This document shows positions 3,127 to 24,332 of a DNA stretch of 27,962 bases, in pieces. Made by a program: the position numbers and the translations under genes. This DNA comes from a virus (lineage: Duplodnaviria; Heunggongvirae; Uroviricota; Caudoviricetes), in the IMG/VR virus record IMGVR_UViG_2627853678_000006, positions 1-27,962 of that record; one strand, 5' to 3'. Numbering within the stretch: the stretch's first letter is position 1; each line of letters starts with the position of its first letter. The notes beneath the pieces were generated by a model. That model was not told the origin of the DNA, made no database searches, and was given only the letters and a program-made list of their open reading frames with translations.

Positions 3127-3701
3127 ACCGGGCCTCCGGTTGTGTCGCCGCCTTTCAGGACGCCAGTATGCTGATGCGCATCAACCACGATCCCGTTAGA
3201 ACTCATCGCTCCGCCGCCCTGGGTAACGCCACCATTGATCACCACTTCGCTGTTAATGCGCGTGCGGTCAGCCTCCAGAACAAACTCACTGGTTTTCAGG
3301 GTGATGTTGCCAGCGGCCTCAATGACCATTGATTTGATGCCCCTGACATACCAGCGCCCGGTGGCGGGTTCGTATTCAAACCAGCCACCGTCAGGATGTT
3401 CTGTCACGCAGGCGTCCGCCGACGTCGACGGTGGCGCGAACTGATTCGAATAGATAGCGGGTAACGCAAAGGCTGTTTCCAGATTGCCGCCCAGACTAAG
3501 CAGCACCACCTGCTCACCTTCCGATGGTCGCCACCATGTGCGGGCATTCCCGGCACGCAGCGTCAGCCAGCTGATCCAGTTGGTTTCAAGCTCGCCCGTT
3601 TTCACCCGGCAAAGCCAGTTCTCCCGGTCCACTTCGGTGACTACCCCAGTGCGGATCAGGTTGGTGATAAGGCGCATGATTTCGGTTAGTTGTGCGTTCA
3701 T
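3123..3701 (-). CDS. V: Baseplate spike / central tail protein V
   Basis: ORF 3123..3809; chosen start is the internal ATG at 3699-3701 (MNAQLTEIMRLITNLIRTGVVTEVD), which aligns with the P2 gpV N-terminus. The 36-codon upstream extension looks non-native. No obvious Shine-Dalgarno at either start. Confidence 0.7.
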   Translation of the reverse strand: MNAQLTEIMRLITNLIRTGVVTEVDRENWLCRVKTGELETNWISWLTLRAGNARTWWRPSEGEQVVLLSLGGNLETAFALPAIYSNQFAPPSTSADACVTEHPDGGWFEYEPATGRWYVRGIKSMVIEAAGNITLKTSEFVLEADRTRINSEVVINGGVTQGGGAMSSNGIVVDAHQHTGVLKGGDTTGGPV

Positions 3702-3747
3702 AGGGTTAGGTTGCACGGACCTTGAATCTATGGCATCAATACGTCCT

Positions 3748-3765
3748 TGTGTGGTAAATGACACA
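3748..3765 (-). promoter_or_regulatory. TGT-N12-ACA dyad, candidate Ogr/Delta-type late-promoter activator site for the V-W-J-I-H operon
   Basis: tgt gtggtaaatgac aca read directly, centred about 55 bp upstream of the V ATG. P2-family late promoters carry this dyad upstream of the start site. Confidence 0.4.
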
Positions 3766-3796
3766 AATACAATTCCAATCGAAGAAAGGTAAAAGA

Positions 3797-4327
3797 ATGA
3801 GCCATCCAATTGATTATTACGCTATAGAAGAACACGCAAGAATAATTGAGCAATTATGCTGTTCATCTGAATTTTATTTACAGCGTATATATTCCACACA
3901 GAAAGTATATGATGGTTCTATAGTAACTGAATTTGAAATGGAGGAGTTATCGTACAACGGATGGTTGGAATATACCATTAGCAACAATCTTATTAGCCTT
4001 TGTACAAAACTACGAATTCTCCAAGACACTAATGAACATGAGTGGAACCCAGATTACTCACCTGAGAAAGAAGCATTTGAAGAACATGAAAATATACTTT
4101 TTGTTATAGATGGTCATGTTAAAGGTTCTATACGCGAATGCTGCAATAAAATTATTCACGCATTAAGTTTTGAGTTAACAAAAAAGACCGGCAAAAATGG
4201 AATAAAATATTGGGATGGTTCTATTATTGCTTCTGGGGTTCAAAACAAAAAAAACTGGAAAATTAAAATAGACCTTTTCCCTTTTTGCCAAAGCATAAAA
4301 AGTTATTTAAGTTTATTAAGTGCGTAA
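3797..4327 (+). CDS. Hypothetical protein, AT-rich moron antisense to the late tail operon
   Basis: ORF 3758..4327; preferred start ATG 3797 preceded by aaaggt. Visibly AT-rich versus flanking genes. No recognisable motif. Sits between S and the V late-promoter dyad, where I recall P2 orf30. Confidence 0.55.
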   Translation: MSHPIDYYAIEEHARIIEQLCCSSEFYLQRIYSTQKVYDGSIVTEFEMEELSYNGWLEYTISNNLISLCTKLRILQDTNEHEWNPDYSPEKEAFEEHENILFVIDGHVKGSIRECCNKIIHALSFELTKKTGKNGIKYWDGSIIASGVQNKKNWKIKIDLFPFCQSIKSYLSLLSA

Positions 4328-4332
4328 ACATT

Positions 4333-4785
4333 CTAATTTTTCATCAAAAAATACTTTAAAAGTAAATCTCTTACTTCATTTTCAGTATGTTCATTTAAAC
4401 CCAGCAATTTTCGGGATGGATACTTAATGACTCCCCCCTTTGGACTGACGCGATCGCGCAGGCCGTAATGATGAACGCGGGCAATGCGCTGCACCTTACC
4501 TTCAAACTGTACGCTGGCAGAATCCGCGCTGGCGGCGGTTTTCAGGTATTTTGTGGTGCGCAGCTTTGCAAACATCTGACGTTTGATGCGCCCTTTTTTA
4601 CTTCGTGCTGTTACCCGTCGCGGTTCATAGCTGCTGCCGTCAGGGTTGCGCTGCATCCTGATATTCTGCTGCTGTGTCCGGCGCAGTTCCTGCGCCAGCT
4701 GGCGCATCATGCGGCTTCTGGCGGCTGGTTCCAGATTCGCCAGCAAGGCACTCAGCCAGTCGTCCACTTTCTGCAGTTCAGCCAC
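4333..4785 (-). CDS. S: Tail completion protein S
   Basis: 150-aa ORF matching the size of P2 gpS, downstream of R with overlapping codons. Confidence 0.8.
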   Translation of the reverse strand: MAELQKVDDWLSALLANLEPAARSRMMRQLAQELRRTQQQNIRMQRNPDGSSYEPRRVTARSKKGRIKRQMFAKLRTTKYLKTAASADSASVQFEGKVQRIARVHHYGLRDRVSPKGGVIKYPSRKLLGLNEHTENEVRDLLLKYFLMKN

Positions 4786-6818: not shown

Positions 6819-7022
6819 TCAGTCCCATAGCTGGACGGTCTGCACGGTGGTGGTGGTCGGAATGTCCGGCAGCTCCACCTGCAGCCCGTGAGGTAAAAAG
6901 GGGCCGTATTCGGCAAGCCCCGGATTTGCCTTCAGTACCTGCTCCGTGACACCCTGCGTGCGCCCGTAATGACGCCAGCAAAGCGCGTCCACCGTGTCAT
7001 ACTGATGCGCACGCACTTTCAT
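6819..7022 (-). CDS. X: Tail protein X
   Basis: 67-aa ORF, same length as P2 gpX, between L and the holin. Confidence 0.8.
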   Translation of the reverse strand: MKVRAHQYDTVDALCWRHYGRTQGVTEQVLKANPGLAEYGPFLPHGLQVELPDIPTTTTVQTVQLWD

Positions 7023-7486
7023 CAGATAAGCTCCACTGTGCAGTGCGGCGCATCCTGTACCCGGCTGATGGCCCAGCGTGCGTCACGCCACAAATCACCG
7101 CTGGATTCCGCCAGTTCCTCGCCTCGCTTCACACCGGATGCCGTGGCGTCATAGTCCTGGTATCGTTCGTTGAGCATGGCGCGTGCCCAGCAGTAAACCG
7201 CGTTGAAATAGTGCTGAATGCGCTCACTTTTGCCGTCCAACTGTTCCGCCGGAACCTCAGCCAGCGACACATACCCCAGCATCTGCTGACGTCTGCGGAA
7301 CTCATACAGCTCTGCGTTGACCTCCGAAATTGCCGACAGCGCAACCTGCTTTAAACGCGGCTGCGTCACCGTGCCGTCAGTGCGCATGACACTGCGAAAC
7401 TCCGACAGGTCCACATCAGGCCAGAACGGCGTATTTCTGATGATTTCCGCCTGTTCCGGTGCCTGTTCTGGCGCAACAAACTTCAT
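7022..7486 (-). CDS. L: Head completion/stabilisation protein L
   Basis: Start taken at ATG 7484-7486 (MKFVAPEQ) with GGAG Shine-Dalgarno; the track ORF extends to 7549. Confidence 0.75.
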   Translation of the reverse strand: MKFVAPEQAPEQAEIIRNTPFWPDVDLSEFRSVMRTDGTVTQPRLKQVALSAISEVNAELYEFRRRQQMLGYVSLAEVPAEQLDGKSERIQHYFNAVYCWARAMLNERYQDYDATASGVKRGEELAESSGDLWRDARWAISRVQDAPHCTVELI

Positions 7487-7581
7487 GCTGCTTTCTCCTG
7501 AAATAGAGGGCGGTGGACGGGGTTTTGATGTGGCAGTGCCTTTCGCCACCCCGTGCCGCCCGTGCGCGGGGGCACGTTCTG

Positions 7582-8232
7582 TCAGCGGCTGTCATTGCGC
7601 AGTCTGCGCTCCAGCTGCTGTTTGTCTTTTTTCACGCCACAGCGGGGATCGAGCTGTAACGCATGGTTGAGATGATTAAGGGCGGAAGCCGGATTGCTTT
7701 CACTCAGGACAGCGCCAATCGCTTTATGCAGACGCGCCCGTGACTGGTCCGGCATATCCAGACCGTCTATCAGCTCCAGCGTCTGCAACAACAGATCGGC
7801 ATCAAAGCCGGTGGCGGCAAGCATTGCGCTCTGCGCGGCGTCTGCCATTTCCTCTGCCAGCACGGTCTGCACATTGCGGTTACCCAGTGGCATCACCCAG
7901 CCATGACGCAGGGCATGACGCCCGATCTCCAGCGCCCCGGCATAATCTCCGGCATCAATGCGCCACAGCATCACGTACATCAGTACGTCATCCTGTTGAG
8001 TGCCTCCGGCAGCCAGGACGCCCTCTGCCCAAGCGGCGTACTTCGGCAGCAGCTCCACCTTTATTTCCGCTTTTTTCACCGTGGACTGAACGCCCTTGAG
8101 ACGGCGGCGGTCTTCCGCCAGTTGCAGCAGCATCAGGTCATAGCCCGACGCGTGGCGAACACTGCCGCCCTCGCGGGCGGCCTGTTCAGCCTGAACGCGC
8201 AGGCGATGCTGCCGTGCGGGACTCAGGCTCAT
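7582..8232 (-). CDS. M: Terminase endonuclease (small) subunit M
   Basis: 216-aa ORF directly after capsid gene N, P2 gpM position. Confidence 0.75.
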   Translation of the reverse strand: MSLSPARQHRLRVQAEQAAREGGSVRHASGYDLMLLQLAEDRRRLKGVQSTVKKAEIKVELLPKYAAWAEGVLAAGGTQQDDVLMYVMLWRIDAGDYAGALEIGRHALRHGWVMPLGNRNVQTVLAEEMADAAQSAMLAATGFDADLLLQTLELIDGLDMPDQSRARLHKAIGAVLSESNPASALNHLNHALQLDPRCGVKKDKQQLERRLRNDSR

Positions 8233-8235
8233 GGG

Positions 8236-9294
8236 TTACGCTCCGGCTTCTGCTGCAGCGGCGCTGAAATCGCCAATCTGGATGTTTTCCACCAGTGCGG
8301 CGCAGCGGTAGTCCTCAACCACATAGGCTTCATTAACGGATTCAAAGTTTTCAATCCGGTCACGTTTCGGGTTGTCGATAACTGAGCGGCGGCGGGTGTC
8401 TTCCTGCCAGTAGATGGACAGGTTATCCAGACGGGTGATCAGCAGTGCATTCGGCGGGAAGAACGGCGCACGCACGGCCTGCAGGCCACCCATGCGTTTC
8501 TGACTGATGATCATATCGGCAGCCAGTTTTTCACTGTTTTCCTGCTCTTTGTTGACCAGCGGGAAATACTTGTCAGACAGCAGTTCACGACCGCAAATCA
8601 CCACCAGATCGTCATCGTCCTGGTAGACCACGTCGATAAGCTCATTGACGGCATCCATCACCACGGCGTCCAGGTTGGCATATTCGCCACCTTTCCCGAC
8701 TTTCACCGCACCCGGTGTGGTTTCACCGCCCGTGGTGGTGCTACCCATGACGTGATCCGGTGCATCTTCACGGATTTTCTGCAGCCAGCCTTTGTTCACA
8801 TCTTGCAACAGCGGGTTTTCGCTACGGTTGGAGGTTTTCGCACGCTTCACGCCGTTAAAGCCGATCATGATGCGGTCCAGTGCCTGACGTTTCACGATGG
8901 CGTCACGGATACGCACCTGGAAATCCTGAAACTTCGCCCACAGGTCCAGCTTCGCGTAGGTCAGTACCGTGTCAAAGTTGGTCTGCTCGCATTTGTATTC
9001 CACATCGACCATCAGCGTCGGATCGACAGGTTCACGCTCTTTCGCGGTGGTATCAGTGGTTCCGGCAATGGTGCTGCCAACTCCCAACCCCAGCAGCTGA
9101 CCGGACTGCTCAGTCACTGGCGCGACGTTAATCAGCGTCAGGAAAGCGGCGGACTGCTGGATCTGGTCTTCCAGCGTCTGCTGTACAGACGGCTCCACGG
9201 TGAACTTGCTGGACAGTTCTTCAACTGCCACACCGTTCAGACGCGCCAGCTGCTGCAGGTAAGCGTTAAAAGCAAAGCGGGTATTCTTCTTCAT
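8236..9294 (-). CDS. N: Major capsid protein N
   Basis: 352-aa ORF (P2 gpN about 357 aa) following scaffold gene O. Confidence 0.85.
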   Translation of the reverse strand: MKKNTRFAFNAYLQQLARLNGVAVEELSSKFTVEPSVQQTLEDQIQQSAAFLTLINVAPVTEQSGQLLGLGVGSTIAGTTDTTAKEREPVDPTLMVDVEYKCEQTNFDTVLTYAKLDLWAKFQDFQVRIRDAIVKRQALDRIMIGFNGVKRAKTSNRSENPLLQDVNKGWLQKIREDAPDHVMGSTTTGGETTPGAVKVGKGGEYANLDAVVMDAVNELIDVVYQDDDDLVVICGRELLSDKYFPLVNKEQENSEKLAADMIISQKRMGGLQAVRAPFFPPNALLITRLDNLSIYWQEDTRRRSVIDNPKRDRIENFESVNEAYVVEDYRCAALVENIQIGDFSAAAAEAGA

Positions 9295-10286: not shown

Positions 10287-12051
10287 ATGAACACCACACT
10301 GACACCCGCAGATCTCGATCCCCGTCGGCAGGCCATGCTGCTGTACTTTCAGGGATACCGCGTCGCCCGCATTGCTGAAATGCTGGGCGAGAAAGTTGCA
10401 ACCGTTCATAGCTGGAAAAAACGCGACAAGTGGGGTGACTATGGGCCGCTGGATCAGATGCAGCTCACCACCGCCGCACGCTACTGCCAGCTCATTATGA
10501 AGGAGCACAAAGAAGGGAAAGATTTCAAAGAGATTGACCTGCTGGCGCGCCAGTCGGAGCGCCACGCGCGCATCGGCAAGTTTAACAATGGCGGCAACGA
10601 AGCCGACTTAAACCCTAACGTCGCCAACCGCAACAAAGGCCCGCGCCGTCAGCCGGAAAAGAATGTTTTCACCGATGAACAGATTGAGAAGCTGGAAGAA
10701 ATCTTCCATTCCTCCATGTTCAACTACCAGCGCCACTGGTGGGAAGCCGGAAAAACCAACCGCATCCGCAACCTGCTGAAATCACGCCAGATCGGCGCGA
10801 CCTTTTACTTTGCCCGTGAAGCCCTGATTGACGCTCTGCTTACCGGACGTAACCAGATTTTCCTTTCCGCCAGTAAGGCACAGGCCCACGTCTTTAAGCA
10901 GTACATCATCGACTTCGCCAAAGAAGTCGAGGTGGAGCTGAAAGGCGATCCGATGGTGCTTCCTAACGGGGCCACGCTTTACTTCCTCGGCACCAATGCC
11001 CGCACGGCCCAGAGTTACCACGGCAACCTGTATCTGGATGAATATTTCTGGATACCGAAATTCCAGGAGCTGCGCAAAGTGGCTTCCGGTATGGCTATTC
11101 ACAAAAAATGGCGACAAACCTATTTTTCCACGCCATCCAGTCTGACACACAGTGCTTATCCGTTCTGGTCCGGTGCGCTGTTCAACCGTGGGCGCAACAA
11201 AGCCGATAAGGTGGACATCGACCTGTCCCACAGAAATCTGGCCCCCGGCCTGCTGTGCGCAGACGGGCAATACCGCCAGATAGTCACCGTGGAAGATGCG
11301 GTGCGCGGCGGCTGTAACCTGTTCGACCTTGACCAGTTGCGCATGGAGTACAGCCCGGACGAATACCAGAACCTGCTGATGTGCGAGTTTGTGGACGATC
11401 TCGCGTCCGTGTTCCCTCTCAGCGAGCTGCAGGCGTGCATGGTAGACAGCTGGGAAATCTGGACCGACTTTCATGCACTGGCGCTGCGCCCGTTTGGCTG
11501 GCGCGAAGTGTGGATCGGTTATGACCCGGCAAAAGGTACGCAAAACGGCGACAGCGCCGGATGCGTGGTGGTGGCACCGCCAGCCGTGCCGGGTGGTAAG
11601 TTCCGCATTCTTGAGCGTCACCAGTGGCGCGGGATGGACTTCCGCGCCCAGCTGACGCCATCAAAAAACTTACCGAGCAGTACAACGTGACTTATATCGG
11701 TATCGACTCAACCGGCGTTGGTCACGGGGTTTACGAGAACGTGAAAGCGTTCTTTCCTGCCGTCAGGGAGTTTGTCTACAACCCCAACGTTAAAAACGCC
11801 TGGTACTCAAGGCCTACGACATTATCAGCCACCGCCGTCTGGAGTTTGACGCCGGGCACACCGACATTGCGCAGTCATTTATGGCAATCCGTCGCGCAAC
11901 CACCGCCAGTGGCAACCGCCCAACCTATGAAGCCAGCCGCAGCGAAGAAGCCAGCCACGCCGATCTGGCCTGGGCAACGATGCACGCACTGTTTAACGAA
12001 CCGCTGCAGGGCGAGTCCGCCAATACCAGCAATATTGTGGAGATTTTTTGA
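10287..12051 (+). pseudogene. P: Terminase large subunit (ATPase) P, interrupted as sequenced by two -1 frameshifts
   Basis: Frame 1 (10287..~11650) ends ...RILERHQWRGMDFRAQ. Frame 2 continues ADAIKKLTEQYNVTYIGIDSTGVGHGVYENVKAFFPAVREFVYNPNVK (ORF 11624..). Frame 3 continues RLVLKAYDIISHRRLEFDAGHTDIAQSFMAIRR...NEPLQGESANTSNIVEIF to the stop at 12049-12051. Junctions near 11648-11652 and 11796-11798 each lack one base. Restored length is about 588 aa (P2 gpP about 590). Confidence 0.85.
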
Positions 12052-13079
12052 TGGGAAAGAGTAAGAAAAACCGCACTGCGGCGACGAATCAGATCCAGCA
12101 TAAAAACCAGACTACAGCCGAAGCATTCAGCTTCGGCGATCCCGTTCCTATTCTGGACCGCCGAGAATTACTGGACTATGTGGAATGCGTACAGATGGAC
12201 CGTTGGTATGAGCCGCCCGTCAGCTTTGACGGACTGGCGCGCACCTTCCGCGCTGCCGTGCATCACAGTTCCCCGATTGCAGTAAAGTGCAACATTCTGA
12301 CCAGTACCTATATCCCTCATCCTCTGCTCAGCCAGCAAGCTTTTTCGCGTTTTGTGCAGGACTATCTGGTATTTGGCAACGCCTATCTGGAGAAACGCAC
12401 GAACCGCTTCGGTGAAGTGATCGCCCTTGAACCTGCGCTGGCAAAATACACCCGACGCGGATTAGACCTGGATACCTACTGGTTTGTGCAATACGGTATG
12501 ACAACCCAGCCGTATCAGTTCACGAAAGGCAGCATTTTTCATCTGATGGAACCGGATATTAATCAGGAGATCTACGGCCTGCCCGGTTATCTTTCTGCCA
12601 TTCCGTCAGCCCTGCTCAACGAGTCCGCCACGCTGTTCCGTCGCAAGTATTACATTAACGGCAGTCATGCGGGCTTTATCATGTACATGACCGATGCCGC
12701 GCAAAACCAGGAGGATGTGAACAACCTCCGCAATGCGATGAAAAGCGCCAAAGGGCCGGGCAACTTCCGCAACCTGTTTATGTACTCACCTAACGGCAAA
12801 AAGGACGGGCTTCAGATTATCCCGTTATCAGAAGTCGCAGCGAAGGATGAGTTTCTGAATATCAAAAATGTTAGTCGCGATGACATGATGGCGGCACACC
12901 GCGTTCCACCGCAAATGATGGGGATTATGCCTAATAATGTCGGGGGATTTGGGGATGTGGAGAAGGCTAGTAAGGTTTTTGTGATAAATGAATTAATTCC
13001 TTTGCAAAAACGATTTAGAGAAATTAATGCATGGCTCGGGGAAAAACTTATAGAATTTTCTCCATATGAGCTTAACTAA
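12048..13079 (+). CDS. Q: Portal protein Q
   Basis: 343-aa ORF (P2 gpQ about 344 aa) overlapping the terminase stop (ATGA). Confidence 0.85.
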   Translation: MMGKSKKNRTAATNQIQHKNQTTAEAFSFGDPVPILDRRELLDYVECVQMDRWYEPPVSFDGLARTFRAAVHHSSPIAVKCNILTSTYIPHPLLSQQAFSRFVQDYLVFGNAYLEKRTNRFGEVIALEPALAKYTRRGLDLDTYWFVQYGMTTQPYQFTKGSIFHLMEPDINQEIYGLPGYLSAIPSALLNESATLFRRKYYINGSHAGFIMYMTDAAQNQEDVNNLRNAMKSAKGPGNFRNLFMYSPNGKKDGLQIIPLSEVAAKDEFLNIKNVSRDDMMAAHRVPPQMMGIMPNNVGGFGDVEKASKVFVINELIPLQKRFREINAWLGEKLIEFSPYELN

Positions 13080-13086
13080 AATATTA

Positions 13087-13118
13087 GTTGCCAGTACCGT
13101 ATTGTTGCTACTGGCAAT
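13087..13118. terminator. Inverted repeat between convergent Q and the RloC-like gene, possible bidirectional terminator
   Basis: ttgccagta ... tactggcaa (9-bp arms) in the 49-bp gap between the two stop codons, followed by A/T-rich sequence. The loop is long, so weak. Confidence 0.25.
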
Positions 13119-13128
13119 TGTAATAAAA

Positions 13129-15465
13129 TTACAAATATGTGTTGCTATGTAGAGATGTGTTTATTCCATCTTTTATCTCAATTTTTGACGAAGCATACTC
13201 ATCATTCGCACTATCATCTATATCAAACTCATCTTGTAGATGAAGTGACTCATTTAACGGTTTATAAAACTCACCCATCATCATTTTGTAATGGGCAGTA
13301 TGCTCACTACATTCAAATATCTTCTGAAAAACAATTAAATATTTTTGCACAGACTCCGTATCTAAATTCATATAAAGATCATCACCTGCAAAATGGGAAC
13401 CATCATTAATCCATGACACTAAAGATTTAAATATGATTTTTTCATCACCATAAAAATGACACTCAAGCTTCCTAATATCCATCCCACCTAATATCTTAAA
13501 GTAATTCTCCAAAATCCTTCGCATTGTATTTTGTATAGTATTATTATTAATGTCTGTTCTTCTCAATTCGCACCAGAGCAAATCATAAGACGTTTTTATT
13601 GGGTTTGATTCGCACTTTTCAAGATATGAAACCTTCCCTTTTTTCCTTACAATCCAAAAAGTCTCCTCTTTCATTGCTTGATTACCGGATCTTTTGGTAT
13701 TAAAAGTCAACTCTTTATGAAAATAAATATTATGAGTAAGGAATATAATTTGCTTAATATTTCCTTCATCCTTACGAACATCCTCCATTAAATCTTTAAT
13801 CAACGAACTTACAATAAACAGAATATCACTATCTAAACTTGAAATTGGATCATCAAATACTACAACACGATCATCTAAAACACCTGATGCATTATCACTC
13901 CCTCTAACAAGGCTATAAAAGTACAAAAAAGTGATAAATGTCTTTTCTCCCTCACTAAGGGTTGTACGAGCATTATCTCCACTATCTCTTACTATCATAT
14001 AATGCTTTTTATCTTCGGAGGGTTTTAAGTAAAAATTTTTGAAGCCATAAGAGTCCAGAATCTTGTTAATTTTTGTAATAGTTGGAAGAGTACTGGTTTT
14101 ATTAGACTCAATTGCCTCAATAGCCGAAGTATTTAACATTAACTTCTTTTTGTCTTCTTCTATCCCAGATTTAAGTCCTTGTAACGTCCTATTAAATTTA
14201 TCAGATTTGCTACGGTAAGAAGTTATTTCAGACTTTAACTCCACCTTTACGATATATGCCCATATCTGCTTAGAAAGATTACTAGCCTCTACCTTTCTAT
14301 TACTATATATTTTGTTATTATTATCTATCAATAGATTTGAATCATTCAAAAAAGAAATAAAATCATCAACAACTTCACTTAAGTCACTAAAATGAACTGA
14401 TTCACTTAAAAAATTGCGTTTATTTTTTGCCAATTCAAAATTCTTGTTTAATTCAGATAATACTATCTTAGCCTTATCCTCAAACACTTCATAATTTATG
14501 AATGGAGATTTAATCGCCCTTATATCATCTATCGCCTTCAAGATATTATTAAGTTGATATTCATATTGTAAAACCAATGCATCGATTTCTCTTTTTTTTA
14601 ACTCATATGTTTTATCAAAATATGATGAAAGATTATCAAATATATTATCATTTACATCCTGCTGGCAGAATGGGCACTTGGGATTAGATTTGCTGAAATA
14701 TGTTAAACCCTCCTTAACCCAATCACTGTTATTGAGCATTGTAATTAAGTCTGAAACACTAACGTCTTTTTTCCCTAGAATACGCTCACTCCAAATTTCC
14801 CTACTTAAAATATCATCTATCCCATTGAAGGATGGAATTGTAATTGATACATGTGATGTCAATTCAGTAGAAAAAACAATTTTTGCTTTCTCAATTAACT
14901 CTGCTATTGAGCAAACTTCTGATGTATTATTTTCATACTCAGCCAACACTCTGGCTTTAAATTTTTCACTACTATTCCTTAATCCCTCAAAAGCCTTTGA
15001 GAACACATTGTCATGTTTTACTTTTTGCTTCCAACATGAATCTTTAAAAGATTTTTCATGGTCTTCGATTTTTTTAATAACGCCTAATTCATTATCACCA
15101 CCATCTATTAACTTTCCCTTTGCTATAATAGATTCCATTAGCTTATTTTTTTCTTCTTTAAGAGATATTAGTTTCTCTTCATCCTCCTTAAGATCGCTAC
15201 CAAGGGTAAATACACCTTTAATTTTATCTTGACTAAAATTTCTTTCAACAAAATCTTTATTATATACGTAGCTTATTAAAGATATATTATTTTTCCATTT
15301 AATCGGACATGTTGGATATTGTTCAGGGTCATTAATAATTTTACTTATAGTTGTTTTACCTGCACCATTAGCTCCATATAAATAGTTAAATTTAGAAAGT
15401 CCATGTAAAAGCTGCGTAGGGCCATTATATGAGCCTACCTTGTCAATAACTACCTCTTCAATCAT
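13129..15465 (-). CDS. RloC/PrrC-like anticodon-nuclease-type protein: ABC ATPase with coiled-coil zinc hook and C-terminal nuclease-like domain (function inferred)
   Basis: 778-aa AT-rich ORF with GAGG Shine-Dalgarno. Walker A GANGAGKTT at the N-terminus, CPFC zinc-hook motif in a long Lys/Glu-rich predicted coiled coil, LSEGEK signature, Walker B VVVFDDPISSLD, H-loop FLTHN, then about 200 aa containing R-x3-E (RRILENYF) and downstream His residues reminiscent of the PrrC catalytic triad. Confidence 0.55.
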   Translation of the reverse strand: MIEEVVIDKVGSYNGPTQLLHGLSKFNYLYGANGAGKTTISKIINDPEQYPTCPIKWKNNISLISYVYNKDFVERNFSQDKIKGVFTLGSDLKEDEEKLISLKEEKNKLMESIIAKGKLIDGGDNELGVIKKIEDHEKSFKDSCWKQKVKHDNVFSKAFEGLRNSSEKFKARVLAEYENNTSEVCSIAELIEKAKIVFSTELTSHVSITIPSFNGIDDILSREIWSERILGKKDVSVSDLITMLNNSDWVKEGLTYFSKSNPKCPFCQQDVNDNIFDNLSSYFDKTYELKKREIDALVLQYEYQLNNILKAIDDIRAIKSPFINYEVFEDKAKIVLSELNKNFELAKNKRNFLSESVHFSDLSEVVDDFISFLNDSNLLIDNNNKIYSNRKVEASNLSKQIWAYIVKVELKSEITSYRSKSDKFNRTLQGLKSGIEEDKKKLMLNTSAIEAIESNKTSTLPTITKINKILDSYGFKNFYLKPSEDKKHYMIVRDSGDNARTTLSEGEKTFITFLYFYSLVRGSDNASGVLDDRVVVFDDPISSLDSDILFIVSSLIKDLMEDVRKDEGNIKQIIFLTHNIYFHKELTFNTKRSGNQAMKEETFWIVRKKGKVSYLEKCESNPIKTSYDLLWCELRRTDINNNTIQNTMRRILENYFKILGGMDIRKLECHFYGDEKIIFKSLVSWINDGSHFAGDDLYMNLDTESVQKYLIVFQKIFECSEHTAHYKMMMGEFYKPLNESLHLQDEFDIDDSANDEYASSKIEIKDGINTSLHSNTYL

Positions 15466-15597
15466 CCTCTAATCCTCAAAAAACAGATTAATCCTATCAA
15501 ATCAATGATAATAGAAGACATTACTTACCTAATTACAAGGTGATCATTTATACAGCTGTAAATAAATCAGGCTAATCATCTATTTGTCATAACGCGC

Positions 15598-15626
15598 GCT
15601 CGTATCCCCGCCACGCCTGCCCGCTT
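15598..15626. other. Putative cos (cohesive end) site
   Basis: Reverse complement of 15601-15625 reads agcgggcaggcGTGGCGGGGAtacg, resembling the G-rich P2/186 cohesive-end sequence as I recall it (GGCGxGGCGGGGAAAGCA). Located between Q and gene A as expected. Confidence 0.4.
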
Positions 15627-15705
15627 TGTGTAGTGGTTTTCATGCACCTGCATGACATAAGTAAAAGCCCGCCAGAACTGGCGGGACTGAGCAAAAACGA
15701 TCCTT

Positions 15706-15735
15706 TTGCGATCATTCATTTTCATGCGCTATAGT
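15706..15735 (+). promoter_or_regulatory. Candidate sigma70 promoter for the three-gene operon
   Basis: TTGCGA (15706-15711), 18-bp spacer, TATAGT (15730-15735); about 100 bp upstream of an AGGAG Shine-Dalgarno and ATG at 15836. Confidence 0.35.
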
Positions 15736-15835
15736 CATGCAACAAACGCATACGAACCATATGGTTAGATTACTCATCAAGTCAGATGGATTTTCAGGCA
15801 GATTGCCACAGCAATTGTAAAGGAGCGAGATTGAA

Positions 15836-16837
15836 ATGGGTGGAGAGACTTCGGCTATACAACGAGTCGCGGGTAAGATTTCTGATGATATTTTCTCAGT
15901 GTTCAAATGGGATCGTGCCGCTAGAGCGGACATGAATTGGGATTGTTGCCAAGAGGCTCATTCCAAGAAAACACATCCAAGCGATGTTGTATTTTTCTAC
16001 ATAGATCCATATGAGGAGGAAATGGTCTATCTCAACACAGACCTCAAAAGCTATGCAGAAGGTACTATTGGGAAAAAAATAGTCGAGGGAGCTTTAACAT
16101 CGCTTGCTTTAGCTACCGAATGTGCAAATGTCAGTGAAGAATGGCGATTGAAATATGTTCATGATGATTCTTTAGGTTATAACGTAAGAGGGTTATTATT
16201 CTTATATAACCATGATAATTTATATGATAAAGACTTCTATGAGAATATTACAAAAAAATTAGATCACTCATCTATAAATTGCCCTCCAAACATCAAACTA
16301 CATTTGCTTGACCCTTATAAAATATCAGATTTGATAAACATATCTTCTGACATAACTAAGTTAATTGGTTCAGGAAAACTTCCTCAACCTGATAAGTTCA
16401 CATATTATTATCCAGATCTTTCCCTAACAAGAATAAAGCACCCTATTAATCAGACAACACCTGCAACAATTGAATTATTAACATCACCATACATTATAAT
16501 AAAGCATGAGGCTTTCAGTTGGCTCAGGGATAAAAACCCTGAGGGATATGTTGTTTATTACAATCAACCGGGGGATTCAGTAGACGAATTCGTTTACTTC
16601 TTTGATATGTTATCAACTTATCAGATATTAACCGAAGGTAAACCAATCGTATTACGCCATTGTCACATTCACCCAAATGAAAATGCCATTCATCATTTTG
16701 AAAGAGCGAAAAAGAAATACAGCACAGACTGGCTCTTAGGCGAGGATGAAAGACTTTTTCTTAAAATTGACTTCGACAAGACAGACAAAATTGTTGTTGA
16801 ATATAATCTTGAACAAATCGGCATGGAGCAACGATAA
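15836..16837 (+). CDS. Hypothetical protein, first gene of three-gene operon; possible PD-(D/E)xK-like motif
   Basis: 333-aa AT-rich ORF with AGGAG Shine-Dalgarno. Contains VVFFYID-x11-TDLK and a His-rich stretch RHCHIHPNENAIHH. Stop overlaps the next start (TAATG). Confidence 0.75.
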   Translation: MGGETSAIQRVAGKISDDIFSVFKWDRAARADMNWDCCQEAHSKKTHPSDVVFFYIDPYEEEMVYLNTDLKSYAEGTIGKKIVEGALTSLALATECANVSEEWRLKYVHDDSLGYNVRGLLFLYNHDNLYDKDFYENITKKLDHSSINCPPNIKLHLLDPYKISDLINISSDITKLIGSGKLPQPDKFTYYYPDLSLTRIKHPINQTTPATIELLTSPYIIIKHEAFSWLRDKNPEGYVVYYNQPGDSVDEFVYFFDMLSTYQILTEGKPIVLRHCHIHPNENAIHHFERAKKKYSTDWLLGEDERLFLKIDFDKTDKIVVEYNLEQIGMEQR

Positions 16838-17916
16838 TGGCTAAAAAACTATATTTCGCAACTGATAAAAATATTTATGATGCATTACATCATAAAAGGA
16901 TAACCGCTGCAAAGTTGCATGAATTATTGTTGAATCGAGGTGTGTTTTTATCACCAGAACTCGACAAGGAAATACTAATCGAGGAAATATCCAAACTTCC
17001 TCACGGATTTAATGAATTAGAACACATAAAAAAACTGGTCAAAACATATGACCCAAGGGAAAGCACTACTAGTGTGAGCTTCCAAACCTCAACAAATCAG
17101 GCCGAATTAAAAAGTGCTGCTGAAGCACTAAAAAAAACATGCTCCCCTAGTAAAGGTCAAAGCCTGAATATTGTAGCTAAAAAAGATGGCTCGCTTACAG
17201 TAGAATACAAATATGAAGAAATAGACCTGTCTAAAACTGCATTACGTCAGATCGACAAGCGGAATGTTATAATAGAACTTCGCCCTGGAGCTGACAAAGT
17301 TGAAGTACGTATGCCTCAAAACCCCGAGGCAAAAAAAGTTATTGAGAGCTTGCAAAACGAGCTATCTAAAATCAAGTCCGAACCTATCGAGCGCTTCGAA
17401 ATATCATTACTAGCAATAACTGATCCTACATTGCGAAGTCAGTTTTTTCAGGAATTAATGAATGGTCTACGCGGTTATGAGACTGATGACGTAACAAAAG
17501 TCGAATTAAATCGCAGTACTGATGCTAGTGAGGATGAAGACAAGGAAGAAACTATTGATACCGGATTTGTTAAGAAAGCCGTCCTTAATGGTGAAGGGGT
17601 AAATAGTTCAGCTATATTTTCTCAACTACATGAGAAAGGTTATTATATCGGGCGTATTGCATGGTCTTCAAAGCCGACAAGTGGAATTGGAGACAGAATC
17701 AACGTCGAAGCATTTTTCAAAGACTCAGAAAAATGCTGTGACTTTGCCTATCAAATTAAAGGTATAAACAATCAAAAAGAAGACGGTTTCAATGTAACCA
17801 TTCGCGCGGCAACAGCACAAGAGAAAAAACATATTAGTGAATTAATTGAGTCCGCCGCTGAAAATGCCTATAATATAATAATAGGATCAGAGGTGAACGA
17901 AGATGAAAAAGGTTAA
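16837..17916 (+). CDS. Hypothetical protein, second gene of three-gene operon
   Basis: 359-aa ORF, translationally coupled on both sides; acidic central linker (STDASEDEDKEE). No motif I can name. Confidence 0.75.
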   Translation: MAKKLYFATDKNIYDALHHKRITAAKLHELLLNRGVFLSPELDKEILIEEISKLPHGFNELEHIKKLVKTYDPRESTTSVSFQTSTNQAELKSAAEALKKTCSPSKGQSLNIVAKKDGSLTVEYKYEEIDLSKTALRQIDKRNVIIELRPGADKVEVRMPQNPEAKKVIESLQNELSKIKSEPIERFEISLLAITDPTLRSQFFQELMNGLRGYETDDVTKVELNRSTDASEDEDKEETIDTGFVKKAVLNGEGVNSSAIFSQLHEKGYYIGRIAWSSKPTSGIGDRINVEAFFKDSEKCCDFAYQIKGINNQKEDGFNVTIRAATAQEKKHISELIESAAENAYNIIIGSEVNEDEKG

Positions 17917-18586
17917 ATGGCTTAAGTTAAACATACGGCTTGAGTTTGAAACAGCCGTTAGACGTCTTTCTCTTGATTCTTTTACAGAGGATAAAGGGAA
18001 AGGGTTCATTTTTGATAAAATACGCCATGATTTTGCAAATGGTCGCTTTGTCGAGCGTATTGTTTATCATGATAAAATATTAAGCTTTGACGGAAGCGAA
18101 ACTACCGTTGAAAGAATCGAATATCGCACCACAAATTTTAGCGTGGCTTTAGACTCTCTTCCTGTAATGCAGATTACTAACCCACCCAGAACTTTAAAGC
18201 CTTTTTCGCAGGCTTTGGTAAAAAATCTTGGCTTAGGTGTTAGTTTGGAAGAAATTGACATAAACCCTATAGACTGGCTTAATGAAATATCTTCAAGTGT
18301 AAATATCAATTTAACACAACTTGATATTTCAAGGGTTAGAGTTTCTGATTACGCCACAGCTAAAATGCAAATAATTGGCAGCAATGATCTTAGGAAGTAT
18401 TATAAAGAAGAATTAGAGGGTAAAAAAATAAGAATTGACAGGCTTGTTTGCTCTGTTAATTCATTAGAATATTCCGGTAAGCTCAAGATCACCAATAGCG
18501 GCCTTGCTTATATTGATGTTAGAAATGAGAATGAGTTTACGAAAATCGTTTTTGATACGTTAAAAAAAGTCACCCTTCAATCATAG
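17903..18586 (+). CDS. Hypothetical protein, third gene of three-gene operon
   Basis: 227-aa ORF overlapping the previous gene by 14 nt; followed by a strong hairpin. Confidence 0.75.
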   Translation: MKKVKWLKLNIRLEFETAVRRLSLDSFTEDKGKGFIFDKIRHDFANGRFVERIVYHDKILSFDGSETTVERIEYRTTNFSVALDSLPVMQITNPPRTLKPFSQALVKNLGLGVSLEEIDINPIDWLNEISSSVNINLTQLDISRVRVSDYATAKMQIIGSNDLRKYYKEELEGKKIRIDRLVCSVNSLEYSGKLKITNSGLAYIDVRNENEFTKIVFDTLKKVTLQS

Positions 18587-23424: not shown

Positions 23425-23649
23425 CTATCGTTCTTTGTTCTTACGGTAACGCTCAAGGGGAGATACATTTTTTCGTACCGTCTCTTTAACCTGCTCTCCC
23501 CGTAAAAACGTCCCATCCTTTAGCGTGAAAAAGTAACTGCCATCGCCCGACAACGACGGATAACAACAGAGCAAATCATCTTCAGGTACTGAATAACTCT
23601 CCCCTCTGTAACGAAACTGATAAACCACTTCACTTTCCGCTGCATACAT
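23425..23649 (-). CDS. Hypothetical small protein overlapping the 3' end of the CII-like ORF
   Basis: 74-aa ORF with GGAG Shine-Dalgarno 9 nt upstream of ATG 23649; overlaps the CII-like ORF by about 130 nt. Confidence 0.3.
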   Translation of the reverse strand: MYAAESEVVYQFRYRGESYSVPEDDLLCCYPSLSGDGSYFFTLKDGTFLRGEQVKETVRKNVSPLERYRKNKER

Positions 23650-24332
23650 TTTGACTTTCTCCGTTTCCTCGTGGTCAATTCAGACAGCAATTCATCTTGT
23701 GAATGACATGGATGCCAGCGTTTACCATCCTCACCCATGATCCAGCCGTGACCGTAGTGCATTGCCGGGCTTTGTTTTACCAGCAGCGATGCAAATGATG
23801 GTTCTTTCGTCAGCATAAGCACCTCACAGCAAACCGAATGAAGCACCGAGCCAGTCACGGTATCAACTGCACTCGCCATCGCAGGATTAGCCTGTAAACG
23901 GGCCTGCAATGAAACAGCCGCCAGCGCCATCAGTCGTGTTACAGAATTAATGCTGCTGATCGCATCGCGACGGCCTGCACTGGTTTTTACATCGCCAGAA
24001 ACCGCACCTGCAGCAACACGCCCGATCTCTGCGGTTGCACTCATGACGTAATGTGGCAGTCTCTCTTTTGCCACCTCATTTACCGGTATACATGGCAGGC
24101 AGTGAATCTGAGCCAGAAATCCATCAACCAGTGTTGGGTCTTCAGTGAGATCGGTTAACTGCCAGATATCTGACGCAGTAAGTTGGTGTGGTTGTTCCGG
24201 GTTGAGCTTGTTACGCAAGGTTTGAACGTTCATACCTGCGCGCTCTGCCAGCTTCGCCATGTTGTGTCGTAGGGCGAAGGCCCGGCAGGCTTCATTGAAA
24301 TGGGGATGTTTTGAAATGCGATAGTCAAACAT
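23520..24332 (-). CDS. cII: CII-like transcriptional regulator (186 CII family); C-terminal about 60 aa questionable
   Basis: N-terminal region (MFDYRISKHPHFNEACRAFALRHNMAKLAERAGMNVQTLRNKLNP...) resembles 186-type CII with HTH. At 270 aa the ORF is longer than I expect for this family and its tail is Cys/Arg-rich. Confidence 0.55.
   Translation of the reverse strand: MFDYRISKHPHFNEACRAFALRHNMAKLAERAGMNVQTLRNKLNPEQPHQLTASDIWQLTDLTEDPTLVDGFLAQIHCLPCIPVNEVAKERLPHYVMSATAEIGRVAAGAVSGDVKTSAGRRDAISSINSVTRLMALAAVSLQARLQANPAMASAVDTVTGSVLHSVCCEVLMLTKEPSFASLLVKQSPAMHYGHGWIMGEDGKRWHPCHSQDELLSELTTRKRRKSKCMQRKVKWFISFVTEGRVIQYLKMICSVVIRRCRAMAVTFSR

What the first reader, a model, noticed from the sequence alone, without database searches (positions are those of the whole stretch)
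13129..15465. RloC/PrrC-like zinc-hook ABC ATPase inserted between portal gene Q and cos
The 778-aa AT-rich protein has Walker A, a long coiled coil carrying a CPFC hook, LSEGE signature, Walker B, H-loop, and a C-terminal R-x3-E...H region. That architecture fits RloC-type anticodon nucleases, which act as suicidal tRNases in phage defence. It is transcribed divergently from the three-gene operon across cos, so the two could be independent cargo or one module. The GC drop begins inside the last ~120 bp of Q, suggesting the recombination junction lies within the portal 3' end.
Basis: partly seen in the sequence, partly recalled or inferred. Interest (0 to 1): 0.7.

Follow-up and report, generated by a model that had tools for sequence, protein, structure and literature searches.

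The report
RloC-like defence gene beside P2 cos
This is a real, intact gene for an RloC-type "suicide" tRNA-cutting enzyme, carried as swappable anti-phage cargo next to the packaging site of a P2-like prophage, but this gene family at this prophage hotspot has already been catalogued, so it is an ordinary find.

Summary
Window 13129-15465 (-) is an intact 778-aa ORF with 30.5% GC. It lies between portal gene Q and the cos site (about 15599-17) of a P2-like prophage.

It matches Pfam AAA_13 end to end (E=1e-163) and PADLOC candidate PDC-S06 (E=1e-266). In 119 homologues these are invariant: Walker A, the CPFC hook, LSEGE, Walker B and the H-loop. So is R649-x3-E653-x37-S690-H691, which fits the published RloC definition (R-x3-E-x36-52-H, Ser before His).

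The AlphaFold model has a Rad50-like head with a long helical insert. The C-terminal domain has no significant structural neighbour.

The gene is stand-alone cargo. Twenty-one complete E. coli genomes carry it with different or no cargo across cos, and the neighbouring 3HP system occurs without it. Relatives sit in the same slot in Enterobacter, in a P4-satellite hotspot and inside type I R-M loci.

It is already known. A 99%-identical protein is listed in Rousset 2022 Table S5A. A P2-borne E. coli RloC orthologue (APEC O1, 27% identical) was listed in 2008.

Most likely it is a DNA-break-gated anticodon nuclease causing abortive infection. That is inferred, not shown. Interest is low.

The parts
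12961..13079 (+). AT-rich 3' end of portal gene Q (last 119 bp). It is co-inherited with the cargo and marks the left recombination junction of the cassette.
   Evidence: GC is 31% against 52% for the rest of Q. Identity to relatives with other cargo drops from 12966-12996 onward. ATPase-sharing relatives (L003, L004) stay at or near 1.0.
13085..13120 (.). 12-bp-stem hairpin in the 49-bp gap between the convergent Q and ATPase genes. It is a candidate bidirectional terminator and takes the place of P2 tQ.
   Evidence: MFE is -16.3 and -16.2 kcal/mol on the two strands, z = -4.2, and 0 of 200 shuffles fold as well. P2 has terminator tQ at the equivalent place. Function is inferred.
13129..15465 (-). 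RloC-like ABC-ATPase / putative anticodon-nuclease gene (778 aa plus stop codon).
   Evidence: ORF. Pfam AAA_13 E=9.9e-164, aa 10-718 on profile positions 2-713 of 713. PADLOC PDC-S06 E=1.1e-266. 99% identical to E. coli 'AAA family ATPase' WP_001741452.
15352..15375 (-). Walker A / P-loop, GANGAGKT (aa 31-38).
   Evidence: G31, N33, G36, K37 and T38 are invariant in 71-119 homologues. It corresponds to GkaRloC K44, which is essential for ACNase activation.
14104..15189 (-). Long helical insert (aa 93-454) that splits the ABC head. This is the predicted coiled-coil arm.
   Evidence: AF2 model with mean pLDDT 80.7. Helices run 93-121, 129-155, 166-197, then 285-318, 325-351, 363-409 and 411-454. 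The best PDB neighbours are Rad50 (7zr1, 5da9; E=1e-7 to 3e-6), AriA and LmuB.
14665..14676 (-). CPFC zinc-hook motif (aa 264-267), near the midpoint of the insert, preceded by the invariant NSDWV.EG.
   Evidence: C264, P265 and C267 are invariant and F266 is at least 90% conserved. It aligns in register with the hook region of GkaRloC, taken from an OCR-derived fragment (E=0.001, weak).
13945..13959 (-). ABC signature LSEGE (aa 503-507).
   Evidence: Invariant.
13849..13866 (-). Walker B / D-loop, VVVFDD followed by PISSLD (aa 534-539 onward).
   Evidence: D538, D539, P540, S542, S543 and D545 are invariant. It corresponds to GkaRloC D572.
13732..13737 (-). H-loop / switch histidine, T577-H578.
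   Evidence: Invariant.
13261..13608 (-). C-terminal all-helical domain (aa 620-735), the putative HEPN-type anticodon-nuclease domain. It carries R649 (13519-13521), E653 (13507-13509), S690-H691 (13393-13398) and the terminal HYKMMMG motif.
   Evidence: R649, R650, E653, S690, H691, H725 and M728-730 are invariant. The spacing R-x3-E-x37-H fits the published RloC motif. The domain model has pLDDT 80. No significant structural neighbour was found.
13132..13263 (-). Acidic, disordered C-terminal tail (aa 735-778; 10 D/E against 3 K/R) with a SAND motif (aa 752-755).
   Evidence: pLDDT is below 35. The [SG]AND motif is found in 18 of the 70 homologues scanned, all enterobacterial-type at 48% identity or more. 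It is absent from the relatives of about 41-45% identity.
15466..15590 (-). AT-rich leader / presumed promoter region of the ATPase gene. It includes the SD sequence GAGGA (15473-15477) and a 20-nt element CAAGGTGATCATTTATACAG (15536-15555).
   Evidence: GC is 29%. The 20-nt element is shared with the Enterobacter cassette, whose protein is only 63% identical, while the flanking sequence differs. The consensus scan found no sigma-70 promoter here, so promoter function is inferred.
15599..15617 (.). cos: the 19-nt cohesive-end equivalent. It forms the right boundary of the cassette, and cargo similarity stops at about 15590.
   Evidence: It aligns to P2 cosL/cosR. The block 15591-15750 is conserved in all P2-like and P4-like loci compared, and the sequence to its left is cargo-specific. 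The cleavage positions were not tested.

Best explanation
The gene encodes a member of the RloC family. RloC proteins are single-polypeptide abortive-infection effectors carried as exchangeable cargo.

Here the gene sits in the Q-side half of the cos-adjacent defence hotspot of a P2-like prophage.

The proposed mechanism is inferred from work on Geobacillus and Acinetobacter RloC and was not shown here:
1. The N-terminal Rad50-like ABC head, split by a coiled coil with a Zn-binding CPFC hook, keeps the C-terminal nuclease silent.
2. DNA ends or double-strand breaks produced during infection by another phage trigger ATP hydrolysis (K37, D538/D539, H578).
3. This switches on the C-terminal metal-independent RNase (R649, E653, H691).
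4. The RNase cuts tRNA anticodon loops. In RloC this excises the wobble nucleotide, which resists phage tRNA repair.
5. Translation stops, and the infected lysogen is sacrificed or arrested, which protects the prophage-bearing population.

The gene works alone. It is not part of the 3HP operon across cos.
For: **Shown here**
- Full-length AAA_13 and PDC-S06 profile matches.
- All ATPase motifs, the CxxC hook and R-x3-E-x37-SH are invariant in 119 homologues.
- The motif spacing, the Ser before His and the size fit the published RloC definition.
- Key residues are collinear with those mutated in GkaRloC: K44, C291, D572, R692, E696 and H737 correspond to K37, C264/C267, D538, R649, E653 and H691.
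- The protein is 27% identical over its full length (E=4e-45) to E. coli APEC O1 YP_852004. That protein is listed as an RloC orthologue and named 'APECO1 RloC' in the RloC papers, and it also lies in a P2 prophage next to cos.
- The PrrC HMM aligns family members through the C-terminal domain, to profile position about 350 of 372.
- The model has a Rad50-like fold.
- Homologues of 42-45% identity are named 'wobble nucleotide-excising tRNase' by NCBI and JGI.
- In 67 loci across phyla no neighbour is conserved. The commonest neighbour family occurs in 8 of 67 loci.
- About four of those loci have type I R-M subunit genes among the neighbours. One is L044, arranged hsdM-hsdS-[gene]-hsdR. This mirrors the published rate of 8 of 72 RloC genes linked to R-M loci.
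- The cassette occurs with different or no cargo across cos, and 3HP occurs without it.

**From the literature**
- ATP- and DNA-dependent activation, hyperactivity of zinc-hook mutants and activation by double-strand-break inducers are reported in PMC2610378, PMC3458546 and PMC3874168.
- Prophage-borne ABC-HEPN proteins were proposed to exclude superinfecting phages (PMC3710099).
Against: - No biochemical or phage-challenge data exist for this subfamily. PADLOC lists it only as a candidate (PDC-S06).
- A 2025 preprint treats an E. coli PDC-S06 ATPase as not called by DefenseFinder.
- The isolated C-terminal domain is not hit by the PrrC HMM.
- I could not retrieve the GkaRloC sequence for a direct full-length comparison.
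- A native antiviral role for RloC rests on heterologous experiments and inference.
- This clade has an extra acidic tail of unknown role.
Confidence: 0.7

Rival explanations
1. It has the same ABC-plus-C-terminal-RNase architecture but a different specificity or trigger. It would cut other RNAs (mRNA, rRNA, or tRNA outside the wobble position). Or it would be switched on by a phage protein or by replication intermediates rather than by DNA ends, possibly through the clade-specific acidic tail.
For: - It is only 27% identical to the APEC O1 RloC.
- The C-terminal domain is related to PrrC and RloC only at motif level.
- The tail with an invariant SAND motif is absent from the relatives of about 41-45% identity, which include the R-M-linked L044 gene. 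Sister proteins end in an SSB-like ..DDAPF or ..NDIPF tip.
- Other ABC-coupled tRNases from the same P2 hotspot use other sites and triggers: OLD, per PMC12445682 and the 2026 preprint.
Against: - The catalytic triad, the hook and all ATPase motifs are exactly those of RloC and are invariant.
- No partner or sensor gene is conserved nearby.
Confidence: 0.2
2. It is a Rad50/SMC/Lamassu-LmuB-like DNA-binding ATPase with no nuclease activity of its own. It would act on DNA, for example in plasmid or phage DNA restriction or in prophage maintenance, through a partner encoded elsewhere.
For: - Rad50, LmuB and AriA are the best structural neighbours.
- There are weak LmuB (4e-13) and AriA HMM hits.
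Against: - These hits cover only the ABC head and coiled coil.
- The 115-residue C-terminal domain with invariant R/E/H is unexplained by this reading.
- No conserved partner gene is found in 67 loci.
- No LmuA-like effector or other gene lies in the slot.
Confidence: 0.06
3. The ATPase and the divergently transcribed three-gene operon across cos form one four-gene defence module.
For: They are adjacent, divergently arranged and both AT-rich.
Against: - The three genes are PADLOC Hp1, Hp2 and Hp3 (E=1e-157 to 1e-248). Rousset 2022 cloned a three-gene system with no clear domains from this hotspot and showed it alone protects against P1. Equating that system with Hp1-3 rests on the names and my recollection.
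- The three genes occur without the ATPase in Klebsiella phage ST437-OXA245phi4.1.
- The ATPase occurs with two unrelated ORFs (PSJ-07) or nothing (MINF_1D) across cos.
- In all 21 E. coli genomes the match stops at window 15741.
Confidence: 0.03

Closest known systems
[quoted passage not shown] 2012 and 2014)
   Same: - The domain order is the same: an ABC head split by a coiled coil with a CxxC hook, then a C-terminal R-x3-E-x36-52-(S)H domain.
- The size class matches (778 aa against 804 and 826 aa).
- It is a stand-alone gene that is only occasionally embedded in type I R-M loci.
- It spreads by lateral transfer.
   Different: - Sequence identity to GkaRloC could not be measured here. Only a 52-residue hook fragment aligned, at 29% identity.
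- This clade adds an acidic tail with a SAND motif.
- Activity, substrates and trigger are untested.
E. coli APEC O1 RloC (YP_852004 / WP_000423308 / APECO1_4465), the prophage ABC-HEPN group of Anantharaman et al. 2013, and 'RloC-like' system #5 (AAA_13, 420 occurrences) of Rousset et al. 2022
   Same: - Both sit in the cos-adjacent hotspot of a P2-like prophage with the gene start next to cos.
- They are collinear over the full length, including the hook and the triad.
- Both match PADLOC PDC-S06.
   Different: - They are only 27% identical and match different PDC-S06 sub-models (PDLC04886 against PDLC04890).
- The APEC O1 gene lies on the A/old side of cos, and the window gene lies on the Q side.
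- The APEC O1 protein has no SAND tail.
PrrC anticodon nuclease (EcoPrrC)
   Same: - It shares the ABC ATPase motifs and the R-x3-E...H triad.
- The profile match is E=5.5e-11.
- Both follow an abortive-infection logic.
   Different: - PrrC is about 400 aa and has no coiled-coil or hook insert.
- PrrC is always embedded in a type Ic hsd locus that silences it.
- PrrC is activated by T4 Stp, GTP and dTTP.
- PrrC nicks the anticodon loop rather than excising the wobble nucleotide.
P2 Old (ABC ATPase plus Toprim), in the same hotspot
   Same: - It is cos-adjacent P2 cargo.
- Its ABC ATPase sensor is coupled to a nuclease now reported to cut tRNA (PMC12445682; 2026 bioRxiv preprint).
- It causes an abortive outcome.
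   Different: - Its effector is Toprim rather than the RloC/PrrC-type domain.
- It has no zinc hook.
- It lies on the other side of cos.
- There is no sequence relationship beyond the ABC fold.
Rad50 / SbcC
   Same: It is the best structural match: an ABC head, an antiparallel coiled coil and an apical CxxC hook.
   Different: - Rad50 has no C-terminal RNase domain.
- It works with the Mre11/SbcD nuclease in DNA repair.
- Its coiled coil is much longer.

Membership tests
RloC (as defined by Davidov & Kaufmann 2008) | [quoted passage not shown] | tested here: met
   GANGAGKT at aa 31-38, LSEGE at 503-507, VVVFDDPISSLD at 534-545 and TH at 577-578. All are invariant in 71-119 homologues.
RloC (as defined by Davidov & Kaufmann 2008) | A coiled-coil insert with a central CxxC zinc hook that splits the ATPase domain. 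| tested here: met
   CPFC at aa 264-267 is invariant. It is flanked by about 170 and 187 residues of predicted helices (aa 93-260 and 273-454) at pLDDT mostly above 85. Rad50 gives the top PDB hits. Zinc binding was not tested.
RloC (as defined by Davidov & Kaufmann 2008) | C-proximal Arg-x3-Glu-x36-52-His motif, with Ser often preceding His. | tested here: met
   R649-x3-E653-x37-S690-H691 is invariant in all homologues examined and is present in APEC O1 RloC.
RloC (as defined by Davidov & Kaufmann 2008) | Size of 658-897 aa, encoded as a single polypeptide. | tested here: met
   778 aa.
RloC (as defined by Davidov & Kaufmann 2008) | Sequence homology to an accepted RloC orthologue. | tested here: met
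   27% identity over 761 columns, E=4e-45, to E. coli APEC O1 YP_852004, which is Table S1 entry 51. A direct comparison with GkaRloC failed for lack of its sequence. Only a hook fragment aligned.
RloC (as defined by Davidov & Kaufmann 2008) | Usually a stand-alone gene, with a minority embedded in type I or III R-M loci ('restriction-linked ORF'). | tested here: met
   No neighbour is conserved in 67 loci. About 4 of the 67 have type I hsd genes among the neighbours, for example L044 with hsdM-hsdS-[gene]-hsdR. The window copy itself is not R-M-linked.
RloC (as defined by Davidov & Kaufmann 2008) | Anticodon-nuclease activity with wobble-nucleotide excision, activated by ATP hydrolysis plus DNA. 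| not testable with these tools
   This needs biochemistry or tRNA sequencing.
HEPN superfamily (the PrrC/RloC/APECO1_4465 group of Anantharaman 2013) | A HEPN-type helical fold in the C-terminal domain. | tested here: inconclusive
PrrC | Embedded in, and silenced by, a type Ic hsd (R-M) locus. | tested here: not met
   The flanks are portal gene Q and cos. There is no hsd gene in the window.
PrrC | A compact protein of about 400 aa with no coiled-coil or hook insert. | tested here: not met
   The protein is 778 aa with a 360-residue insert. The PrrC HMM matches only aa 460-704 and does not hit the isolated C-terminal domain.
OLD / Gabija GajA / PARIS (ABC ATPase plus Toprim) | A Toprim nuclease domain or partner (DUF4435 / AriB). 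| tested here: not met
   No Toprim or DUF4435 hit appears in Pfam, PADLOC or NCBIfam. AriA is hit at only 1e-6, on the P-loop region. No partner gene is present.
Lamassu (LmuB SMC-like ATPase) | An operon with the LmuA effector (and LmuC). | tested here: not met
   The LmuB HMM scores only 4e-13, against 1e-266 for PDC-S06. The cassette holds a single gene.
PADLOC PDC-S06 (candidate single-gene defence system) | A full-length match to a PDC-S06 HMM. | tested here: met
   PDLC04890, E=1.1e-266, aa 1-734 on profile positions 1-726 of 732. The APEC O1 RloC, the P4-borne paralogue and the R-M-linked L044 homologue are also PDC-S06.

The most novel reading that the evidence does not exclude
The enterobacterial, cos-adjacent clade to which this protein belongs has gained an extra regulatory module. 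This is a disordered acidic C-terminal tail with an invariant SAND motif. In sister proteins the tail ends in an SSB-like ..DDAPF or ..NDIPF tip.

If the tail mimics the C-terminal tails of single-strand-binding proteins, or DNA itself, it could tether or gate the nuclease through replication or repair proteins. The trigger would then be phage replication intermediates or SSB-partner hijacking, rather than plain DNA ends. That would be an input not described for RloC.
Probability: 0.12. Interest if true: 0.5.

Novelty: already known. Interest (0 to 1): 0.2.

Why it matters
The practical value is modest.

- **A natural system for testing RloC.** This is an intact, naturally E. coli-adapted RloC-type gene in its native P2 prophage context. 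RloC's antiviral role has so far rested mainly on a thermophile enzyme expressed in E. coli and on DNA-damage experiments in Acinetobacter. A P2-type lysogen with and without this gene would therefore be a clean natural system for testing whether RloC really is an abortive-infection defence and what triggers it.
- **How the hotspot is organised.** The locus shows that the P2 cos hotspot has two independently exchangeable halves. The conserved cos core, about 160 bp, acts as the joint on one side and the 3' end of Q on the other.
- **Different tRNases in equivalent positions.** ABC-ATPase-coupled tRNases of different effector types occupy equivalent positions: Old with Toprim, and RloC-like with a HEPN-type domain.

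None of this changes current understanding.

Tried and rejected
1. **Retrieving GkaRloC for a direct comparison.**
   - I rebuilt about 200 residues from the OCR text of the 2008 supplement.
   - A protein search with that fragment found nothing at E of 1e-10 or below.
   - A back-translated pattern (EWVREGLGLHKG) scanned against species-representative genomes gave 0 hits.
   - The OCR is evidently faulty. Only a 52-residue hook alignment was obtained (E=0.001).
2. **AFDB Foldseek search.** It was meant to find PrrC and RloC models by name, but the library was not available.
4. **PrrC HMM on the isolated C-terminal domain.** No hit at E of 10 or below. The full-length PrrC hit is therefore driven mainly by the ABC part.
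5. **PDB sequence search.** No relative has a solved structure.
6. **tblastn against plasmids, hoping to find an annotated PrrC.** Every hit is named 'AAA family ATPase'. The short Yersinia hit (H95) is a TraG-fused conjugation ATPase, not PrrC.
7. **Flanking direct or inverted repeats that would indicate transposition of the cassette.** None at the junctions. Exchange by recombination in the Q 3' end and at cos fits better.
8. **Non-coding RNA or tRNA genes in the window**, such as a retron ncRNA or a self-protecting tRNA. None found.
9. **Consensus sigma-70 promoter upstream of the gene.** None at the scan threshold.
10. **One four-gene module with 3HP.** Rejected.
Full report
**What is there**

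The window is a P2-like (Peduoviridae) prophage. Running left to right it holds scaffold gene O (-), terminase P (+), portal Q (+, 12048-13079) and the ORF in question (13129-15465, -). Next come cos, a three-gene operon (+, 15836-18586), dinI-like and small ORFs, replication gene A (-), dam, cII/fil, a CI repressor, a KAP NTPase and the integrase.

The ORF is intact, starts with ATG and encodes 778 aa. GAGGA lies 7 nt upstream of the start. Its GC content is 30.5%, against 52-56% for the phage backbone.

**Position relative to cos**

Aligning the circularised P2 ends to the window places the 19-nt cohesive-end equivalent at 15599-15617. Its reverse complement is GGCGTGGCGGGGATACGAG, against GGCGAGGCGGGGAAAGCAC in P2. 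The P2 left arm faces Q.

In P2 the stop codon of Q is only about 167 bp from cos, with terminator tQ between them. Here that interval is 2.5 kb and holds the ATPase gene.

A multiple alignment of seven P2- and P4-type loci shows a conserved cos core at about 15591-15750. Similarity between loci that carry different cargo stops abruptly at about 15590.

On the other side, the last 119 bp of Q are 31% GC. From 12966-12996 onward they diverge from relatives that carry other cargo. They stay at or near 100% identical in relatives that carry the same ATPase.

No flanking repeats suggest transposition. A 12-bp-stem hairpin (13085-13120, z = -4.2) sits between the convergent genes where P2 has tQ.

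**The protein**

- Pfam AAA_13 matches end to end (E=9.9e-164; aa 10-718 on profile positions 2-713 of 713).
- PADLOC's candidate system PDC-S06 matches at E=1.1e-266.
- PrrC (5.5e-11) and LmuB (4e-13) are only weak, partial hits.
- No Toprim, OLD or Gabija model matches.

A database search returned 591 relatives at E of 1e-5 or below. Several of those at 42-45% identity are named "wobble nucleotide-excising tRNase" by NCBI or JGI.

In alignments of 119 and 71 sequences the following are invariant:
- G31, N33, G36, K37, T38 (Walker A)
- C264, P265, C267 (hook)
- L503-S-E-G-E507 (signature)
- D538, D539, P540 (Walker B / D-loop)
- T577, H578 (H-loop)
- R649, R650, E653, S690, H691, H725 and M728-730

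The AlphaFold2 model (mean pLDDT 80.7) shows an ABC head interrupted by about 360 residues of long helices, with the hook near their midpoint. After the head come a helical C-terminal domain and a disordered tail. Its best PDB neighbours are Rad50 in Mre11-Rad50 complexes, then AriA, LmuB and SMC heads.

**Is it an RloC?**

The founding paper defines RloC by four features (PMC2610378):
- PrrC-like ABC motifs
- a coiled-coil / CxxC zinc-hook insert
- a C-proximal Arg-x3-Glu-x36-52-His motif, often with Ser before His
- a size of 658-897 aa

The window protein meets all four. Its motif is R649-x3-E653-x37-S690-H691.

The residues mutated in GkaRloC are K44, C291, D572, R692, E696 and H737. They are collinear with K37, C264/C267, D538, R649, E653 and H691.

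Table S1 of that paper lists as orthologue 51 [quoted passage not shown]. I located this gene in a P2-like prophage of APEC O1, between gpA and cos. It aligns with the window protein over the full length (27% identity, E=4e-45), including the hook, LSEGEKT, DDPISSL, LTHN, MR.ILE.YF and IN.GSH.

The same APEC O1 protein prototypes the prophage-borne ABC-HEPN group of Anantharaman et al. 2013. Klaiman et al. 2012 call it "E. coli APECO1 RloC".

The APEC O1 protein, a P4-satellite paralogue and an R-M-embedded homologue all match PDC-S06. The PrrC profile aligns them through the C-terminal domain.

**Context across bacteria**

A scan of species-representative genomes found at least 586 relatives, from Proteobacteria to Planctomycetota and even a methanogen MAG.

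In 67 loci with flanks no neighbour is conserved. The commonest neighbour family, DUF2130, occurs in 8 loci. About four loci have type I R-M subunit genes among the neighbours. In Pseudoalteromonas pernae the order is hsdM-hsdS-[gene]-hsdR, the classical "restriction-linked ORF" arrangement. This parallels the published figure of 8 of 72.

Closer relatives occupy three kinds of site:
- the same Q-cos slot in Enterobacter hormaechei (63% identity)
- the integrase-psu hotspot of a P4-like satellite in E. coli
- a defence-island-like region in Duganella

**One module or two?**

The three-gene operon across cos is PADLOC Hp1, Hp2 and Hp3 (E down to 1e-248). Rousset et al. 2022 cloned a three-gene system with no clear predicted domains from this hotspot and showed it protects against P1. 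Equating that system with Hp1-3 (the "3HP" label) rests on the names and my recollection.

It occurs without the ATPase in Klebsiella phage ST437-OXA245phi4.1. The ATPase cassette occurs in 21 of 5,426 complete E. coli genomes (96-99% nucleotide identity). In all of them the match stops at window 15741. Across cos these genomes have two unrelated ORFs (PSJ-07) or nothing (MINF_1D). The two are independent cargo in the two halves of the cos hotspot.

**What remains weak**

The nuclease assignment rests on the conserved triad and on profile collinearity.
- The isolated C-terminal domain is not hit by the PrrC HMM.
- No RloC or PrrC structure exists in the PDB copy by sequence.
- I failed to obtain the GkaRloC sequence.
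- The AFDB library was unavailable.
- No experiment has tested this subfamily. PADLOC treats it as a candidate, and a 2025 preprint implies DefenseFinder does not call an E. coli PDC-S06 ATPase.

**Mechanism (inferred)**

By analogy with GkaRloC and AbaRloC, the Rad50-like head and zinc hook form an internal switch. ATP hydrolysis stimulated by DNA ends activates the C-terminal RNase. The RNase excises the wobble nucleotide of tRNAs and stops translation (PMC2610378, PMC3458546, PMC3874168).

In a P2 lysogen this would act as abortive-infection or superinfection exclusion against phages that break host DNA or expose DNA ends. That role was proposed for prophage ABC-HEPN proteins in 2013. From reference lists and memory, a 2015 Mol Microbiol paper from Kaufmann's group reported activation of RloC by T4-induced DNA breaks. 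I could not read it.

**Novelty**

- The gpA-gpQ hotspot is published (Rousset 2022; Vassallo 2022).
- Rousset's Table S5A lists WP_001741452, the 99%-identical protein, as "AAA_13" at this hotspot. Table S5B calls the sibling AAA_13 system (420 occurrences) "RloC-like". Neither was cloned there.
- I therefore rate the finding as already known, with low interest.
- The only unreported-looking feature is the clade-specific acidic tail with an invariant SAND motif. Nine sister proteins end in an SSB-like ..DDAPF or ..NDIPF tip. The window protein itself lacks the PF tip.

Noticed in passing
window 15836-18586 (+): The three-gene operon matches PADLOC Hp1, Hp2 and Hp3 end to end (E=1e-239, 3e-248, 2e-157). 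Rousset 2022 showed a three-gene no-domain system from this hotspot protects against P1; I take this to be '3HP' from memory. It occurs without the ATPase in Klebsiella phage ST437-OXA245phi4.1. Hp2 has a weak NCBIfam hit to GapS4b (2e-5).
   Followed up: partly
window 13132-13263 (aa 735-778) and homologues P0002-P0022: The enterobacterial clade has an acidic, disordered C-terminal tail with an invariant [SG]AND motif. Nine sister proteins end in ..D(D/E)(A/V/I)PF, resembling the E. coli SSB C-terminal tip DDDIPF (from memory). The window protein ends in ..HSNTYL. Relatives of about 41-45% identity lack the tail.
   Followed up: partly
window about 11650 and about 11798 (terminase gene P, 10287-12064): Relative to the intact P gene of E. 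coli PSJ-07, the window has two single-base deletions in short G and C runs. They split P into ORFs of 467 and 146 aa. This is either a defective prophage or homopolymer sequencing errors.
   Followed up: partly
window 25487-26827 (+): An AT-rich (about 33% GC) 446-aa KAP-family P-loop NTPase (Pfam E=4e-51) lies between the CI repressor and the integrase. This is probably another defence-cargo slot of the prophage. Rousset's table also pairs KAP_NTPase with this AAA_13 protein in one genome.
   Followed up: no
window 3500-4500 (ORF 3758-4327, +): Another AT-rich island (35-45% GC) sits inside the late-gene region, with a 189-aa ORF that has no Pfam hit. It may be the Z/fun-type second P2 hotspot.
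   Followed up: no
L005 (E. coli WL164) 6922-9207: A 761-aa paralogue sits in the integrase-psu hotspot of a P4-like satellite, again with its start next to cos. By size, E. coli source and shared C-terminal tail sequence it corresponds to cluster P0017, which is 52% identical to the window protein. The family is therefore shared between helper-phage and satellite hotspots.
   Followed up: partly
L012 (E. coli APEC O1) 45933-48149 compared with the window: The APEC O1 RloC lies on the A/old side of cos, while the window gene lies on the Q side. In both, and in the P4 locus, the gene start abuts cos and transcription runs away from it.
   Followed up: partly
window 15536-15555: The 20-nt element CAAGGTGATCATTTATACAG lies upstream of the ATPase gene. 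It is conserved in the Enterobacter cassette, whose protein is only 63% identical, while the surrounding leader differs. It may be a promoter or operator and contains a GATC site.
   Followed up: no
E. coli C21 (hits H47 and H48): In this strain the same ATPase gene is interrupted by an IS5-like ISKpn26 element, so the gene is occasionally inactivated.
   Followed up: no
window 12800-15850 against 5,426 complete E. coli genomes: None of the 21 genomes carrying the ATPase cassette has the three-gene operon across cos, because every match ends at window 15741. The window's cargo combination is therefore absent from that collection, which is consistent with independent shuffling of the two half-slots.
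   Followed up: partly
window 23520-24332 (-): A single 270-aa ORF combines the Phage_CP76 (CII) and 186-Fil domains. These are separate genes in related prophages (L004), so this may be another frameshift or fusion.
   Followed up: no
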